Below are positions 3,684 through 54,203 of a stretch of DNA of 64,000 nucleotides, in pieces; position 1 is the first letter of the stretch; each line of letters opens with the position of its first letter. The translations under genes and the position numbers were made by a program. The notes under the pieces were generated by a model. The model searched no databases. It was not told the DNA's origin and was given only the letters and a program-made list of their open reading frames with translations. The stretch lies in sequence record OR769032.1, one strand, 5' to 3'. This DNA comes from Escherichia phage JoYop.

Positions 3684-4144
3684 TAGTAAAGGTCCTCAGA
3701 GTAAAGTTCTTTTTCACTACCACCACGTTCAATACGTACTTGTCCAGCGTAAGTTGCAATAATCATTGCTTCTTCACGTGTCCAATAATTACTATATTGG
3801 TCAATAAACCCTTGGTCATCATCACAAACTTGTTGAGTAACTAATTGAGGTTTAACTACATCTAAAACTTCTGCCATATCTTTAGAATAATGACGAGCAC
3901 CTGGAATAATAAGAGTTCGTCCATCTTTTAATTTAAAACGATTAGCTGCACAGACAATTCGTCGTTGATACTTTTGGTTTTCATCCCAGTATGCAGTCTG
4001 CCAACAGATTTCAGGAACTTCATCTAAAACATTTTGTTCTGTATATTCACCACCGTAAGAAGCTAATTTAGCAGCCAGACTTTCCGGAGTCTCACGCGAC
4101 AAAGCTTTATCTAACAGAGCTAAGCGTTCTTTAAAAGTTTTCAT
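3683..4144 (-). CDS. hypothetical protein (153 aa)
   Basis: Track ORF; ATGA-type overlap with neighbours. Confidence 0.55.
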
Positions 4145-4470
4145 TTAAACCATCCTTTAATACGTTGCCACAAAGTTTTCTGCTGAGCTTTGTTAACACC
4201 AATTGAGCGAATAACCGGTTGAGATTCCTGGAATTCTTTATAATCATCAAGGTAAATTTCGTAAGCTGCATCTGTAAATGAACTTATTGCTGCCATAAAA
4301 TTATTGCGAATACCTACTGGAGCATCTTTACTTTCACGAATAATCATGTATTTACCAGTCTTAATCTTTACGATAGTTCCAAGATAAGCTCCGTGGTACC
4401 AAATATCCCAACCCTCTTGAGTAGGTTCTGCACAACGACGAAGTTCATTGATAATTTCTAACTTGTTCAT
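4141..4470 (-). CDS. hypothetical protein (109 aa)
   Basis: Track ORF directly upstream (in transcription order) of the arn-proximal ORFs. Confidence 0.55.
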
Positions 4471-4480
4471 TATTTATTCC

Positions 4481-15178: not shown

Positions 15179-15447
15179 TATTTAAAACGAATAGTCGAAT
15201 CCTTGAAGAATAGACCAGAACACACGGTTCCTTCTACTTTCTGCCCGGTAGGTCCAATAGCACGAAATCCAGTATGTTGGAAATCATTTTCAGAGCAACC
15301 GAACCAGTTATATCCAGTGATTTCAATATTAGTAAAACCACTTGAAGACAAAACTTTAGTTGCATTATCAGCATCAGTACATCCTACTAAAGATACTGCT
15401 AATACTAATGCTGCGATAGAACGATTAACATATTTCATAATTTTCAC
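15178..15447 (-). CDS. small putative lipoprotein (89 aa)
   Basis: Signal peptide with lipobox-like LVGC (…AALVLAVSLVGCTDAD…). Confidence 0.5.
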   Translation of the reverse strand: MKIMKYVNRSIAALVLAVSLVGCTDADNATKVLSSSGFTNIEITGYNWFGCSENDFQHTGFRAIGPTGQKVEGTVCSGLFFKDSTIRFK

Positions 15448-15815
15448 TTAAATTTAATGGCTTGAAGAAGACTAATAATTCTCAAGCGACTTCTTTCATC
15501 TTTAACTGTAAAAGAAAGAGGGTCACCAGATTTCATAGTAATAGTACATTCAAAATCAAAATCTTCGGGAACTTCTTCGAATAGGTCAAATTCTTCATCA
15601 TAAATTAGAACATTACTCTGAAAACTGTGAAGAATTTTTCCATCATTTCCAGATGCTGTACTAATCATTGTAACATTATTACCTTTCATATCTTCAACGA
15701 TAAATTCGCTTGTAGATATTACAGCATTAATAGAACCATTCCTATAAATAGCAGAAAATAGATATTTCTTTTCTTCGCCTTCGCGAATACGATACTTCTT
15801 ACCGATTTTAAACAT
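15444..15815 (-). CDS. hypothetical protein (123 aa)
   Basis: Track ORF; ATGA overlap with downstream ORF. Confidence 0.55.
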   Translation of the reverse strand: MFKIGKKYRIREGEEKKYLFSAIYRNGSINAVISTSEFIVEDMKGNNVTMISTASGNDGKILHSFQSNVLIYDEEFDLFEEVPEDFDFECTITMKSGDPLSFTVKDERSRLRIISLLQAIKFK

Positions 15816-17569: not shown

Positions 17570-18003
17570 TAGCTTACACGAACATTAATCACTGCGCTGC
17601 GAGGAACTACGGAGTACTCTCCAGCATGAACTACATTAAGAAGTTCAACGCCATCTTCAATCCACTGGTCAGTTACCCAACCGCCAATCGGATTCGCGAA
17701 TGGACGACGAATATAAACTGCCTTACACAACAGATCAGTCGGGTCTTCAGGTTTTTCAATTTCTGTCAATAGATTAAAATCTTCTTCATAGATGATGAAT
17801 GATGATACCCTTCCATAATAGTTTCTAATTTCCATGTACACTGTACCAATGAGAATTCCGCTATTAACACTAATAACAGTAAAAGGATATCCGCCAGTTG
17901 TACCAAGAAGTTCCCAAAACTTGCTATCAGTCGTATTCGACATTGTCTGGAAATCAATTTCAGACGGTTTTTTCATTTGATACGTAGTATTAATTTTAAT
18001 CAT
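17569..18003 (-). CDS. hypothetical protein (144 aa), paralogue of 16998..17495 in its C-terminal part
   Basis: C-terminal WVTDQWIEDGVELLNVVHAGEYSVVP aligns with ITDQWVEDGVKLYNAVFLGTYKVIP. Confidence 0.5.
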   Translation of the reverse strand: MIKINTTYQMKKPSEIDFQTMSNTTDSKFWELLGTTGGYPFTVISVNSGILIGTVYMEIRNYYGRVSSFIIYEEDFNLLTEIEKPEDPTDLLCKAVYIRRPFANPIGGWVTDQWIEDGVELLNVVHAGEYSVVPRSAVINVRVS

Positions 18004-26177: not shown

Positions 26178-26387
26178 TTAAATTACATGATTATTTATAA
26201 TAAATTCTCGCGGAACGTTAAAATACCCGATTTTAGTTAATATAACAACATCGCCGTTAATGATTACCGGAGAATAATCTTCTGGAGCATTAAATTTCCA
26301 ATGGGCTCTAATATTATATCCATCAGAACCAAATGCTCGAGTAGCCGGTCTCCCGGCTTTTTGCCATGCGTAGAAATCAAATTTCAT
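26178..26387 (-). CDS. hypothetical protein (69 aa)
   Basis: Track ORF between gene 56 and soc. Confidence 0.5.
   Translation of the reverse strand: MKFDFYAWQKAGRPATRAFGSDGYNIRAHWKFNAPEDYSPVIINGDVVILTKIGYFNVPREFIINNHVI
26193..26200 (-). promoter_or_regulatory. late promoter TATAAATA upstream of soc
   Basis: Exact TATAAATA on the coding strand ~32 nt upstream of the soc ATG. Confidence 0.55.
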
Positions 26388-26578
26388 TTTGAATGCTCTA
26401 TAATTAATTTTAAAGCTTCTTCACTGACATAAATTTCGTCATGACCTTCTGTAACTTCAACCATACGAAGCTGATTAGTTAAGAGCTCACATACGAGCCC
26501 TTTGTCATAATCTTTAAATAGCTGGTCAATACGTTTCTTGTGGGCTTTCTTAAGCTGGCGTTTATTTAAACGAGCCAT
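26384..26578 (-). CDS. hypothetical protein (64 aa)
   Basis: Track ORF, ATGA overlap with gene 56. Confidence 0.5.
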   Translation of the reverse strand: MARLNKRQLKKAHKKRIDQLFKDYDKGLVCELLTNQLRMVEVTEGHDEIYVSEEALKLIIEHSK

Positions 26579-27096
26579 TAATAACCTCGGTCTTGACGAG
26601 CGAAGTTTTCAGCATTTTTCAGATAATAAAGTTTAAAGATTTCTTCAGCTGACATTCCAAGAGCAATGAATTTATTCATGAAAAAGTGAAATTGGTCAAT
26701 AAGTTCAAATTTAATTTCAAGCTGATCTTCGGGAGATAAATCTTGAATTTTTTTGGATTGCATTTCAGAATAACGTTTCTTCCAAGGTTTCCATACAGCA
26801 GAAGCTTCTTTTTCACCATTACTCATACCGCCAAGAGAAGTATATAGCTCGCGAGTTTCGTCTGCGATATAATCGTCTTGGTTTCGCAACCAAGCAAGAA
26901 CTTCTCCCGCAGTTTCAAGTGAATCGGGATGACGATTTGTTTCTGGTTTATCGTTAGCCAAACGAATCTGTAAATGCCGTTGCATATCAAGCATAACCTG
27001 CAGTGGGTCAATATTGTGCATAATATTCTCAGCATATGCACGATTTGCTTTATCAACACCTTCGATCAAATGAGCACATTCATTAAAGTAAGCCAT
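26578..27096 (-). CDS. 56: dCTP pyrophosphatase gp56
   Basis: 172 aa, size and position match T4 gp56; MazG-like helical signature. Confidence 0.8.
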   Translation of the reverse strand: MAYFNECAHLIEGVDKANRAYAENIMHNIDPLQVMLDMQRHLQIRLANDKPETNRHPDSLETAGEVLAWLRNQDDYIADETRELYTSLGGMSNGEKEASAVWKPWKKRYSEMQSKKIQDLSPEDQLEIKFELIDQFHFFMNKFIALGMSAEEIFKLYYLKNAENFARQDRGY

Positions 27097-27168
27097 TATT
27101 TTTTCCTTTCAATTCATGGGTTAGTAGATTAATTATACAATAAATATATAAAGCAATAAGGAGGACAT

Positions 27169-27369
27169 ATGGTACAAAAATTAATGGCACTTGTCAATGC
27201 CATAAAAGGTAATAAAAAGCGTATAGCTTTTACTATTTCTGCTATGGTAGGAATTTTACTCTGGAACTTTATTTTATCACCAATTGCAATTGCGCATGGT
27301 GTTAATATTCCAGTAGTTACTCTTGATACATTCGTAGATTTAGCATTTGCTCTAGTTGGGCTAATTTAA
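27169..27369 (+). CDS. small membrane protein (66 aa) on the opposite strand
   Basis: Strong SD AAGGAGG 5 nt before ATG; hydrophobic segments; AATAAATA/TATATAAA late-promoter-like AT box upstream; convergent with gene 61. Confidence 0.55.
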   Translation: MVQKLMALVNAIKGNKKRIAFTISAMVGILLWNFILSPIAIAHGVNIPVVTLDTFVDLAFALVGLI

Positions 27370-28394
27370 ATCTTAGCATATTTAGATAGCCGCATTTTAG
27401 CCATTAACCCCTGGGCAATATTATTTTTCATATATTCCATAATTTGTTCAGGGGTTGCACCTTCCTTTCTAATCATATCATTAACATCTTTAGATTTCCA
27501 GGGAGATTTATCCCAAAACATAACCCTTTCTCCTGCATTGACTAATTTAGTCATTCGCTTAATTGTATCAGGATGCCGAGGTTCATTATCTAAGACCCAC
27601 ACACGTCTATCTTTAAATGGAACAACTTCTAGGTCTAATTGGCCACCCGTAATGGCTATACCATTTTCAATAAAAAGTGAGTCGATAGGTCCTTCTAGAA
27701 CATATACATCACCATCTTTAACTCGTTCAACACCGTAAATTTTTGTTGCCTCAGGATAAGCTTTGATGGTGATATATTTTTGAGGAGCATCTTTCTTTAA
27801 TGCGCGTCCTTGAAAAGACTCAGCTTTTCCGTTAGCATTATAAATTGGAATAACAAGTCTAGGTTCAGAAATTTCCTTTTTGTATGTTCCTGGAGCTATG
27901 CTATTAACTAATTTAGGCCATTCAGATGTAAACCAAAGATACTTCCATTTATCCTTTGGAATACAACGAGCTTTTACATATTTTATAATTGGATGGTCTT
28001 CCGCCAGTTTATCTAATCTAATGCATGACGGAAGAGATTTAATTATTTTCTTCTCAGGTTGTTTAGGAAGTTCTTTAGGTTTTTCTACTGGACGACTTTT
28101 ACCTTTTTCTTTTCTTATTTCAAAGATATACTCACGATATAAATCAGGTTCAAACTCCTTTAAATATATTCCGATTGGTGCATGATAGTTGCAGTTATAA
28201 CAATGAATATTTCCTTCATTATTATCGCCATAATACCATCCACGGGCTTTATTTTGATCGGTTTTTGAATCTCCACAAACAGGGCATCTAAACCGTAATT
28301 TAAAAGTTGAACTATTATTTACTTGTGTAAATTTAGGTAAATGAGCTAATGCACGGTATGCAAACTCATTATCAATCCAAGGTATTGATGACAT
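27366..28394 (-). CDS. 61: DNA primase gp61
   Basis: 342 aa; zinc-ribbon CPVCGDSK...CYNCNYH; same size as T4 gp61. Confidence 0.9.
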   Translation of the reverse strand: MSSIPWIDNEFAYRALAHLPKFTQVNNSSTFKLRFRCPVCGDSKTDQNKARGWYYGDNNEGNIHCYNCNYHAPIGIYLKEFEPDLYREYIFEIRKEKGKSRPVEKPKELPKQPEKKIIKSLPSCIRLDKLAEDHPIIKYVKARCIPKDKWKYLWFTSEWPKLVNSIAPGTYKKEISEPRLVIPIYNANGKAESFQGRALKKDAPQKYITIKAYPEATKIYGVERVKDGDVYVLEGPIDSLFIENGIAITGGQLDLEVVPFKDRRVWVLDNEPRHPDTIKRMTKLVNAGERVMFWDKSPWKSKDVNDMIRKEGATPEQIMEYMKNNIAQGLMAKMRLSKYAKI

Positions 28395-53684: not shown

Positions 53685-54154
53685 TTTAAACTCTTTCTAA
53701 GCTGCTTCTTAAATGAAGCTATTAATTGTGTTTTAGTGTCAGATTCATTATATTCAAATCCTCTTTGAAGCATCTCGGCCATCATTTCCTCTTTTCCTAA
53801 ACGAGAAAATTCCTTTGATTTATCTCCAACAAAGTTAGGGTGAATATTATTTTGGGTGTAATCGGATTTTAAATAAGTGAGTAAATTTTCTAACCATTCA
53901 AGATAATCAACGCCTTGTCCCTTTAAACCAGAACGATTAAATTTGTGCTTCATTTGACCTTCTGCAGCATTACACAGATTACATAACAATCCACGTACCT
54001 TTCCTGCTTTCGGTCCATTTAATTCATGGTCATGATCGAGGTGATTAGCTTGAACATCAGGATTTAATTCTCGTTGGCAAATTAAGCATTTACCATTTTG
54101 TGCATTATAAAATTTTTGTTTTTCTTCTTTGTATAATTTGCCAGTCAATAACAT
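53681..54154 (-). CDS. 49: endonuclease VII gp49 (Holliday junction resolvase)
   Basis: 157 aa; zinc-binding CLIC...CNLC and HLDHDHE motif. Confidence 0.85.
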   Translation of the reverse strand: MLLTGKLYKEEKQKFYNAQNGKCLICQRELNPDVQANHLDHDHELNGPKAGKVRGLLCNLCNAAEGQMKHKFNRSGLKGQGVDYLEWLENLLTYLKSDYTQNNIHPNFVGDKSKEFSRLGKEEMMAEMLQRGFEYNESDTKTQLIASFKKQLRKSLK

Positions 54155-54203
54155 AATAAAACCCTTACCTTAAATAGATAAGGGTATTTATTATTTTCAA
54201 GTA

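What the first reader, a model, noticed from the sequence alone, without database searches (positions are those of the whole stretch)
27169..27369. Well-signalled small membrane ORF on the opposite strand between genes 56 and 61
This 66-aa hydrophobic ORF is the only convincing +-strand gene inside the long - strand block. It has a near-consensus SD (AAGGAGG) and an AT box resembling the late-promoter motif just upstream, and its stop overlaps the gene 61 stop in convergent orientation. My recollection, which I cannot verify here, is that T4 carries dam (on the - strand) at this position; no methyltransferase-sized ORF exists here.
Basis: partly seen in the sequence, partly recalled or inferred. 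Interest (0 to 1): 0.4.

Follow-up and report, generated by a model that had tools for sequence, protein, structure and literature searches.

The report
Conserved small late membrane-protein gene
The 66-codon opposite-strand ORF between the dCTPase and primase genes is a real, conserved gene for a small membrane protein of unknown function. Hundreds of T4-like phages already carry it, including T4 itself, where the reference annotation simply misses it.

Summary
ORF 27169-27369 (+) encodes 66 aa and has an AAGGAGG ribosome-binding site and an ATAAATA late-promoter core at 27140-27146. Its stop codon overlaps the stop of gene 61 (primase). No dam gene lies here or anywhere else in the window.

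The implied novelty does not hold. T4 (AF158101.6, 17738-17935) and T2 encode the same protein at 95-97% identity, next to the gene 61 stop. Neither reference annotation includes it. In T4, dam is a cassette inserted between gene 56 and this ORF.

RB14, RB32 and RB69 annotate the ORF (RB32ORF030w, RB69ORF029w). It belongs to phrog_2024 and occurs in about 690 phage records. Remote members occur in at least nine Tevenvirinae genera, always convergent on the primase gene. It is absent from RB49.

dN/dS of 0.08-0.35 shows selection on the protein. The late-promoter core is about 4-fold depleted in the window, yet it is kept upstream of this ORF across genera and stays with the ORF when dam is inserted.

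The predicted product is a single-pass inner-membrane protein: N-terminus in the cytoplasm, about 25 residues in the periplasm, and an invariant W-N-[F/Y]-x3-P motif inside the membrane helix. Its function is unknown. This is an already catalogued but uncharacterised family, of modest interest.

The parts
27169..27369 (+). Protein-coding gene, 66 aa (MVQKLMALVNAIKGNKKRIAFTISAMVGILLWNFILSPIAIAHGVNIPVVTLDTFVDLAFALVGLI). It belongs to phrog_2024 and is the orthologue of RB32ORF030w and RB69ORF029w.
   Evidence: The ORF is listed. phrog_2024 matches at E 1.5e-31 over the full length. 692 phage records carry it. dN/dS is 0.08-0.35. The exact sequence is RB68_032 and occurs on 154 contigs.
27140..27146 (+). 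ATAAATA, the core of the T4 late (gp55) promoter TATAAATA; here the 8-mer reads AATAAATA. Function as a promoter is inferred.
   Evidence: The 7-mer occurs 9 times in the window against 39.9 expected. Four of the nine sites lie directly upstream of start codons, including those of t and soc. The box is exact in 9 of 11 lineages, 5-12 nt upstream of the SD. It stays with the ORF when dam is inserted. Nolan 2006 report that the -13 T is poorly conserved.
27158..27164 (+). Shine-Dalgarno sequence AAGGAGG, 4 nt before the ATG
   Evidence: The sequence is shown. AGGAGG, GGAGG, AGGAG or AAGGAG is kept at the same place in all 11 lineages compared.
27223..27294 (+). Codons 19-42, the single strong transmembrane helix. 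It carries the invariant W32-N33-F34 and P38.
   Evidence: AF2 predicts a helix at residues 16-42 with pLDDT of about 85. The best 19-residue Kyte-Doolittle window scores 1.7-2.6 in all members. Invariant columns are listed. Nolan 2006 predicted a TM at 21-41 for RB69ORF029w.
27295..27366 (+). Codons 43-66, the C-terminal tail predicted to be periplasmic or interfacial. It contains H-G-x3-P, a conserved acidic residue (D53) and a short amphipathic helix.
   Evidence: AF2 predicts a loop at 43-51 and a helix at 52-63. The tail has 0-2 K/R residues against 4-7 in the N-terminal part. Conservation is shown.
27174..27203 (-). Terminator-like hairpin on the - strand (ATGGCATTGACAAGTGCCAT followed by TAATTTTTGT), lying inside codons 2-12 of the ORF. 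It is the likely 3' end of gene 61 transcripts.
   Evidence: The consensus scan found it. It is conserved in Tequatrovirus but not in Mosigvirus or Gaprivervirus. The fPS-65 record annotates a terminator at the same place.
27132..27158 (-). Middle-promoter-like site for gene 56 on the - strand: MotA box TATTGCTTTA, an 11-nt spacer, then TATAAT. On the opposite strand its spacer holds the ATAAATA box.
   Evidence: The - strand sequence is shown. The consensus (a/t)(a/t)(a/t)TGCTTtA placed 12 +/- 1 bp from the -10 element, and T4 P56/69, come from PMC2988021. The MotA box is homologous to the one next to T4 gene 56.
26578..27096 (-). Gene 56 (dCTPase), the left neighbour, transcribed divergently from the ORF
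27366..28394 (-). Gene 61 (DNA primase), the right neighbour. It is convergent with the ORF, and the two stop codons overlap by 4 nt.

Best explanation
The ORF is a genuine gene specific to the Tevenvirinae. It was inserted tail-to-tail against the primase gene and carries its own late (gp55-type) promoter core and a strong ribosome-binding site. It should therefore be transcribed clockwise, late in infection, from inside an otherwise counter-clockwise early and middle region, in the same way as the isolated late genes soc, t and 49. Its product is a 60-69-residue bitopic inner-membrane protein. A basic N-terminus lies in the cytoplasm, followed by one transmembrane helix and a tail of about 25 residues on the periplasmic side. 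An Asn and a Pro inside the helix (W-N-[F/Y]-x3-P) and the juxtamembrane [H/Y]-G-x2-(L)-P ... [D/E] motif are invariant. The most likely mode of action is therefore a specific helix-helix contact in the membrane, either self-association or binding to a host or phage membrane protein, at the late stage when assembly, lysis timing and envelope events take place. What is shown: the gene is real, it is under protein-level selection, and its synteny and signals are conserved. What is inferred: late timing, membrane topology and action through an in-membrane partner. The biological role is unknown.
For: Coding: dN/dS is 0.08-0.14 within Tequatrovirus and 0.15-0.35 between genera, and length is preserved at 60-69 aa with no frame disruptions. 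Conservation: 692 records carry the ORF, 686 of them covering at least 80% of it. Remote members occur in Jiaodavirus, Gelderlandvirus, Moonvirus, Kanagawavirus and Mosugukvirus, and tblastn hits extend to Dhakavirus and other genera. In the six remote or divergent contexts fetched, the ORF is always + strand and convergent on gene 61. It stays in place while dam, a T2/fPS-65 ORF or a homing endonuclease is inserted on either side. RB49 has only 14 nt between genes 61 and 56, so the ORF is a lineage-specific acquisition. Late promoter: ATAAATA is 4-fold depleted in the window (9 observed against 39.9 expected), and TATAAATA is 5-fold depleted. Four of the nine surviving sites directly precede start codons, including t and soc. 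The box is exact in 9 of 11 lineages within otherwise unalignable upstream DNA. In T4, T2 and fPS-65 it stays with the ORF and not with the gene 56 promoter. No sigma-70-like + strand promoter was found upstream. Membrane protein: AF2 predicts helices at 2-14, 16-42 and 52-63 with mean pLDDT 78.5. The charge distribution follows the positive-inside rule, with 4-7 K/R N-terminal and 0-2 C-terminal. A published TM prediction exists for the RB69 orthologue.
Against: No transcript, ribosome-footprint or peptide evidence for this ORF was found in the literature searched. Nolan et al. 2006 did not list a late promoter upstream of RB69ORF029w. Two lineages (STML-198, Merlin) have TTAAATA in place of ATAAATA. 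In dam-less genomes the box lies in the spacer of the - strand gene 56 middle promoter, so part of its conservation there could serve that promoter. Whether the hydrophobic C-tail of the T4/RB69 branch forms a second or re-entrant membrane segment is unresolved. Neither sequence nor fold gives any functional clue.
Confidence: 0.7

Rival explanations
1. The protein is a holin, pinholin or antiholin-type lysis protein: a small late membrane protein that permeabilises the inner membrane or sets its timing.
For: It is small, hydrophobic and predicted to be late. One UniProt entry (phage OE5505, A0A482MZV5) is named 'Holin'. In the T4/RB69 branch the C-tail is hydrophobic enough (Kyte-Doolittle 1.7-2.0) to allow a two-helix hairpin like class II holins.
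Against: No Pfam, NCBIfam or PHROG holin family matches, even at E = 10. The 'Holin' label is a single automatic or submitter name among hundreds of 'hypothetical protein' entries. The protein has no charged hydrophilic C-terminal domain; the charge is N-terminal. In most genera the C-tail is too polar and too short to span the membrane. The gene is not next to the endolysin or to t, which lies 25 kb away at 1732-2388. T4 already has a complete, genetically defined lysis set (t, e, rI, rIII, pseT.3, pseT.2); this last point is established knowledge and was not tested here.
Confidence: 0.1
2. The locus works mainly at the RNA level. A late + strand transcript is antisense to the 3' end of primase mRNA, or the DNA serves as the gene 61 terminator and 3' UTR, and the ORF is incidental.
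For: The stop codons overlap, so no terminator can lie between the convergent genes and each transcript must run into the other. A - strand terminator-like hairpin lies inside codons 6-12, so the gene 61 3' UTR would be complementary to most of the ORF. No + strand terminator was found downstream within 500 nt. Late antisense transcription is documented for T4 gene 32 (Belin et al. 1987, cited in PMC3014915).
Against: dN/dS well below 1, preserved length and frame, and invariant residues across about 30-55% identical homologues all show selection on the protein. The - strand hairpin is conserved only in Tequatrovirus. The strong SD is conserved everywhere. An RNA role could exist alongside the protein role but cannot replace it.
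Confidence: 0.05
3. The ORF is a real gene but is not late. It would be expressed early or middle from an unrecognised + strand promoter, for example as a host-takeover or superinfection-exclusion membrane protein like Imm.
For: The gene sits in an early and middle region. T4 early membrane proteins of similar size exist (Imm, Ac; established knowledge). Nolan 2006 did not score a late promoter for it.
Against: No sigma-70-like + strand promoter lies upstream. The only conserved upstream element is the late box. The gene's orientation, clockwise, is that of T4 late genes (PMC1524935).
Confidence: 0.1
4. The ORF is a chance open frame in AT-rich intergenic DNA.
For: It is short, and the T4 and T2 reference annotations omit it.
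Against: Searches show conservation, purifying selection and remote homologues that keep the same motif and the same synteny.
Confidence: 0.02

Closest known systems
RB69ORF029w / RB32ORF030w (RB14ORF31) / RB68_032; PHROG family phrog_2024
   Same: It is the same gene. Identity is 97-100% with RB14 and RB68 and 55% with the RB69-type (Mosigvirus) protein. Position and orientation between genes 56 and 61 are the same, and so is the single predicted TM.
   Different: Nothing of substance differs. The family has no assigned function. Nolan et al. 2006 counted the RB69 copy among the 'novel ORFs', meaning ORFs without a T4 counterpart, although T4 encodes it unannotated.
Unannotated T4 ORF at AF158101.6 17738-17935 (+), in the dam-61 gap
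   Same: The protein is 97% identical, with the same SD, the same ATAAATA box and the same 4-nt stop overlap with gene 61.
   Different: In T4 the dam cassette (about 0.9 kb) separates the ORF from gene 56 and its middle promoter. In the window the ORF's late box lies inside the spacer of that promoter on the other strand.
Isolated T4 late genes embedded in early regions, or carrying their own late promoter (soc, t, 49)
   Same: The module is the same: an ATAAATA box, then 7-17 nt, then a strong SD, then the ATG. Examples in the window are t at 1707, soc at 26198 (-) and the 157-aa gene-49-like ORF at 54191 (-).
   Different: soc and 49 lie on the same strand as their early neighbours. This gene is on the opposite strand and converges on the primase gene. 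Late transcription is documented for those genes (established knowledge) but not for this one.
Small phage inner-membrane proteins of T4 (Imm, RI antiholin, Ac) and class II/III holins
   Same: Small size, one or two hydrophobic helices, and action presumably in the envelope.
   Different: There is no detectable sequence or fold relationship. The charge distribution and the lack of a polar C-terminal domain do not fit holins. The periplasmic part (about 25 aa) is much shorter than that of RI or T.
Lambdoid 'morons' (a single ORF with its own promoter inserted between conserved genes)
   Same: A single small ORF with its own promoter was inserted between two genes that are adjacent in an outgroup; in RB49, genes 61 and 56 are 14 nt apart.
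   Different: It has no terminator of its own, it is an ancient acquisition conserved across a whole subfamily, and the promoter is the phage's own late type.

Membership tests
phrog_2024 / RB69ORF029w family | Full-length significant match to the family profile | tested here: met
   E = 1.5e-31, residues 2-66 against profile positions 1-65 of 65. The exact sequence is already deposited as RB68_032 and others.
phrog_2024 / RB69ORF029w family | Position on the + strand, convergent on the 3' end of the primase gene 61 | tested here: met
   Window, T4, T2, RB14, G53, DK-13, fPS-65, PKO111, STML-198, PM2, Entb_45 and Merlin
T4 late genes (gp55/gp33/gp45-dependent) | TATAAATA-type box at -13 to -6, upstream of the gene | tested here: met
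   AATAAATA at 27139-27146 matches 7 of 8 positions, and the deviating -13 position is poorly conserved according to PMC1524935. The motif is depleted genome-wide but conserved here.
T4 late genes (gp55/gp33/gp45-dependent) | Transcript appears late and depends on gp55, gp33, gp45 and DNA replication | not testable with these tools
   No expression data were found for this ORF.
Holins (any Pfam or PHROG holin family) | Sequence match to a holin family | tested here: not met
   No Pfam or NCBIfam hit at E <= 10. The only PHROG matches have unknown function.
Holins (any Pfam or PHROG holin family) | Hydrophilic, highly charged C-terminal domain after the last TM | tested here: not met
   The C-terminal 25-30 residues carry 0-2 K/R and end in hydrophobic residues. 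The charge cluster is N-terminal.
Holins (any Pfam or PHROG holin family) | Membrane-permeabilising activity that triggers lysis; genetic linkage to the lysis cassette | tested here: inconclusive
   Activity cannot be tested here. On linkage, the gene is not adjacent to t (1732-2388) or to any endolysin gene within 25 kb.
Single-pass (bitopic) inner-membrane proteins, N-in/C-out | One hydrophobic helix of at least 19 residues, with the positive-charge bias on the N-terminal side | tested here: met
   Kyte-Doolittle 1.7-2.6 over the best 19-mer in 11 of 11 members, and K+R of 4-7 N-terminal against 0-2 C-terminal. AF2 predicts a helix at 16-42. A TM at 21-41 was predicted for the RB69 copy. Experimental topology was not tested.
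Type I toxin-antitoxin-like module (small hydrophobic peptide plus cis-antisense RNA) | Toxic small membrane peptide whose translation is repressed by an overlapping antisense RNA | not tested
   Only the geometry is suggestive: the gene 61 3' UTR would be antisense to the ORF. No data exist on toxicity or regulation.

The most novel reading that the evidence does not exclude
T4 and its whole subfamily carry an overlooked late gene whose small bitopic membrane protein has a specific role at the envelope late in infection, for example tuning holin or antiholin timing, membrane-associated head assembly, or blocking a host membrane-based defence. Because the gene converges on the primase gene with overlapping stops, its late mRNA might also pair with the primase 3' UTR and help shut off primase expression. 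That would add a new component to one of the best-studied phage life cycles.
Probability: 0.12. Interest if true: 0.6.

Novelty: already known. Interest (0 to 1): 0.25.

Why it matters
For this window the result is a clean-up. The ORF is a bona fide conserved gene of T4-like phages and should be annotated as a hypothetical membrane protein (phrog_2024). It is neither a novelty nor a replacement for dam.

The wider point is modest but real. The T4 and T2 reference records, and several others (SP18, VR20, IME08, IME523), omit a gene that is under purifying selection across at least nine Tevenvirinae genera and has a conserved late-promoter and SD module. Omics studies that rely on the T4 reference annotation therefore cannot see it.

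It is an easy target for a first functional study. It overlaps no other gene except at the 4-nt stop, so clean knockouts are possible.

Tried and rejected
- **Family and structure searches.** Pfam and NCBIfam scans gave no hits. Foldseek against the PDB gave nothing, and against BFVD it returned only family members. A profile search of PDB sequences gave nothing.
- **Exhaustive profile search.** The HMM search of 1.84 billion cluster representatives found only 8 representatives at E <= 1e-3, all small phage proteins with the same motif. It gave no link to any characterised family.
- **RNA families.** The Rfam scan of 26900-27700 gave only a sub-threshold chance hit to a miRNA family.
- **IMG/VR.** The scan with the single protein returned only 5 near-identical loci, which were of little use for divergence analysis.
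- **Literature.** Searches for the ORF names, for T4 Ribo-seq or small-protein work and for T4 late or antisense transcriptomics found nothing on this ORF. The T4 genome review PMC150520 is not held. The T4 multi-omics paper and the DksA RNA-seq paper do not mention the locus.
- **Ideas rejected.**
  - ORF as a replacement for dam: T4 has both.
  - Holin: the membership features fail.
  - The - strand hairpin as the reason for sequence conservation: it is conserved only in Tequatrovirus.
  - The ATAAATA box being merely part of the gene 56 middle-promoter spacer: in T4 the P56 spacer lacks the box, and the box stays with the ORF.
- **An inefficient call.** The megablast of the G53 locus was meant to find RB69 coordinates and added little.

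Full report
**Observation.** The window holds an ATG at 27169 that opens a 66-codon frame ending in TAA at 27367-27369. The sequence AAGGAGG lies at 27158-27164, 4 nt upstream of the ATG. The 7-mer ATAAATA lies at 27140-27146. The left neighbour is gene 56 (dCTPase, 26578-27096, - strand), only 72 nt away and divergent. The right neighbour is gene 61 (primase, 27366-28394, - strand), which is convergent; the two stop codons share the palindrome TTAA. From about position 2389 to the end of the window, every + strand ORF of 80 aa or more lies within a larger - strand ORF, so this is the only free-standing + strand ORF seen in that block.

**It is not new: T4 has it.** A tblastn search of 50,697 phage records found the protein in 692 of them, 686 covering at least 80% of its length. 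Among them is T4 AF158101.6 at 17738-17935 (+), 97% identical, and T2 LC348380.1 at 95.5%. In the T4 reference record this stretch is a 310-bp unannotated gap between the dam start (17625) and the gene 61 stop (17935). T2 also leaves it unannotated. RB14 annotates it as 'RB32ORF030w hypothetical protein, similar to RB69ORF029w'. The exact window sequence is already deposited as RB68_032 and others, on 154 contigs. T4's exact sequence has no NCBI protein accession. In T4, T2 and fPS-65, dam (with an extra ORF in T2 and fPS-65) lies between gene 56 and this ORF. The window has no Dam homologue anywhere. The dam-less arrangement is common: at least 294 records hold the contiguous 56-ORF-61 layout.

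**It is a real protein-coding gene.** Nei-Gojobori dN/dS is 0.08-0.14 against T4, T2 and another Tequatrovirus. It is 0.15-0.35 against or between Mosigvirus and Gaprivervirus orthologues that are 46-55% identical in protein. Length is preserved at 65-66 aa in these genera. An exhaustive profile search of 1.84 billion cluster representatives found only eight representatives at E <= 1e-3, so the family is narrow. The remote ones (60-68 aa) share a distinctive core. Locating them by tblastn placed them in Jiaodavirus, Gelderlandvirus, Moonvirus, Kanagawavirus, Mosugukvirus, Dhakavirus and others, and several records leave them unannotated. In every context fetched, the ORF is on the + strand and converges on the 3' end of gene 61, usually with the same 4-nt stop overlap. 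It stays in place when a homing endonuclease is inserted between it and gene 61 (DK-13) or when dam is inserted between it and gene 56 (T4). In RB49 (Krischvirus, outside the Tevenvirinae), genes 61 and 56 are 14 nt apart with nothing between them. The gene therefore looks like an old acquisition specific to the Tevenvirinae.

**Expression signals.** The T4 late-promoter consensus is TATAAATA at -13 to -6. Nolan et al. 2006 note that the -13 T is poorly conserved among T4-like phages (PMC1524935), which leaves ATAAATA as the informative core.
- The core is strongly avoided in this window: 9 occurrences on both strands against 39.9 +/- 6.5 expected, and 2 against 10.5 for the full 8-mer.
- Of the nine sites, four lie directly upstream of an SD and a start codon. 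These are the 218-aa holin gene t (1707), soc (26198, -), a 157-aa ORF with the hairpin-then-ATG layout of T4 gene 49 (54191, -), and this ORF (27140). Identifying those three as T4 late genes rests on established knowledge, not on a test done here.
- Across 11 lineages in nine genera, the upstream DNA is otherwise unalignable. Even so, ATAAATA is exact in nine lineages (Entb_45 has the full TATAAATA), 5-12 nt upstream of a conserved AGGAGG-type SD. STML-198 and Merlin have TTAAATA.
- In T4 the spacer of the gene 56 middle promoter has no such box, and the GATAAATAT...AAGGAGG module lies on the far side of dam, next to the ORF. In dam-less genomes the box sits inside that promoter's spacer on the other strand. 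The box therefore travels with the ORF.
- No sigma-70-like + strand promoter was found upstream.

Late, gp55-dependent transcription is well supported by inference but has not been shown. Nolan et al. did not list a late promoter for RB69ORF029w, and I found no transcript or peptide evidence for the ORF.

**The other strand.** On the - strand, 27158->27132 reads TATTGCTTTA, then 11 nt, then TATAAT. This fits the MotA-box consensus (a/t)(a/t)(a/t)TGCTTtA placed 12 +/- 1 bp from the -10 element (PMC2988021). It is homologous to the region next to T4 gene 56, where P56/69 is mapped. A terminator-like hairpin, ATGGCATTGACAAGTGCCAT followed by TAATTTTTGT, lies on the - strand at 27203-27174, within codons 2-12 of the ORF. 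It is conserved in Tequatrovirus, is annotated as a terminator in fPS-65, and is not conserved in Mosigvirus or Gaprivervirus. Gene 61 transcripts would therefore carry a 3' UTR of about 190 nt complementary to most of the ORF. A late + strand transcript would run antisense into gene 61, and no + strand terminator lies within 500 nt. This geometry allows RNA-level interplay, but the evidence for protein-level selection rules out an RNA-only role.

**The protein.** AlphaFold2 on an 18-sequence alignment gives helices at 2-14, 16-42 and 52-63, with mean pLDDT 78.5. All 11 members analysed have one strongly hydrophobic 19-mer (Kyte-Doolittle 1.7-2.6), with 4-7 Lys/Arg on its N-terminal side and 0-2 on its C-terminal side. 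By the positive-inside rule this predicts a cytoplasmic N-terminus, one membrane helix and a periplasmic tail of about 25 residues. The tail is hydrophobic enough to be a possible second or re-entrant segment only in the T4, RB69 and Gaprivervirus branch (1.7-2.0), not in the other genera (0.8-1.5). Nolan et al. predicted one TM (21-41) and no signal peptide for RB69ORF029w. The invariant or near-invariant positions are as follows:
- a basic cluster before the helix;
- W32-N33-[F/Y]34 and P38 inside the helix;
- [H/Y]43-G44 at its end;
- P48;
- an acidic residue at position 53.

An invariant Asn in mid-membrane next to a Pro kink is the kind of feature that drives specific helix-helix association. 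This is general membrane-protein knowledge and an inference here. I therefore favour action through self-association or binding to a membrane partner, at the late stage. The role itself remains unknown.

**Comparison with known families.** The protein belongs to phrog_2024, a family of unknown function (E 1.5e-31). It has no Pfam, NCBIfam, PDB or informative BFVD relative and no Rfam match. One UniProt entry is named 'Holin', but the features tested do not fit. No holin family matches. There is no charged C-terminal domain. The gene is not linked to t or to an endolysin gene. In most genera the second hydrophobic segment is too weak.

**Verdict.** The finding is correct as an observation and ordinary as a discovery. 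It is a conserved, already catalogued, uncharacterised small membrane-protein gene of T4-like phages. The residual interest is that the T4 and T2 reference annotations omit it, that it appears to be a late gene placed on the opposite strand in an early region, and that nothing is known about what it does.

Noticed in passing
window 15743-15750 (+): This is one of only two full TATAAATA late-promoter boxes in the 64-kb window. It lies on the + strand inside the - strand block and has no SD or start codon within 90 nt downstream. It may be a late antisense promoter running against the 123-aa - strand ORF at 15444-15815.
   Followed up: partly
whole window, both strands: The late-promoter motif is strongly counter-selected. 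TATAAATA occurs 2 times against 10.5 expected, and ATAAATA 9 times against 39.9 expected. Every shuffle had at least as many sites as observed. The surviving sites are therefore unusually informative.
   Followed up: yes
window 27132-27158 (-): A gene 56 middle-promoter-like site (MotA box TATTGCTTTA, 11-nt spacer, TATAAT) is superimposed back-to-back on the ORF's late box and SD. In dam-less phages, a middle promoter and a late promoter that fire in opposite directions therefore share the same 30 bp.
   Followed up: partly
window 27174-27203 (-): An intrinsic-terminator-like hairpin for gene 61 transcripts lies inside codons 2-12 of the small ORF. Its loop and stem also contain TTGACA, which gave a 10/12 sigma-70-like match on the - strand (27197->27169). 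The hairpin is conserved only in Tequatrovirus.
   Followed up: partly
L001 (T4), L003 (T2), L006 (DK-13), L007 (fPS-65): Both junctions of the small ORF are insertion hot spots. On the gene 56 side there is dam alone (T4) or dam plus a 181-186-aa ORF (T2, fPS-65). On the gene 61 side there is a homing endonuclease (DK-13). T4 also has segF next to gene 56.
   Followed up: partly
window 54154-54191 (-): An ATAAATA box is followed by a GC-rich hairpin (CCCTTA...TAAGGG) and then the ATG of a 157-aa ORF. This is the layout described for T4 gene 49, whose late promoter lies upstream of a hairpin that masks the RBS in longer transcripts. The identification is from memory and was not checked.
   Followed up: no
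phage records NC_014595.1 (SP18), NC_028894.1 (VR20), HM071924.1 (IME08), NC_070777.1 (IME523), LC348380.1/NC_054931.1 (T2), AF158101.6 (T4): Homologues of the small ORF are present by tblastn, but no feature is annotated under the match. This is a systematic annotation gap for the family.
   Followed up: partly
window 4471-4477 (-): An ATAAATA box directly abuts the start codon (GAGGAATAAATAATG) of a 109-aa - strand ORF at 4141-4470. It is too close to serve as a promoter for that ORF, and its significance is unknown.
   Followed up: no
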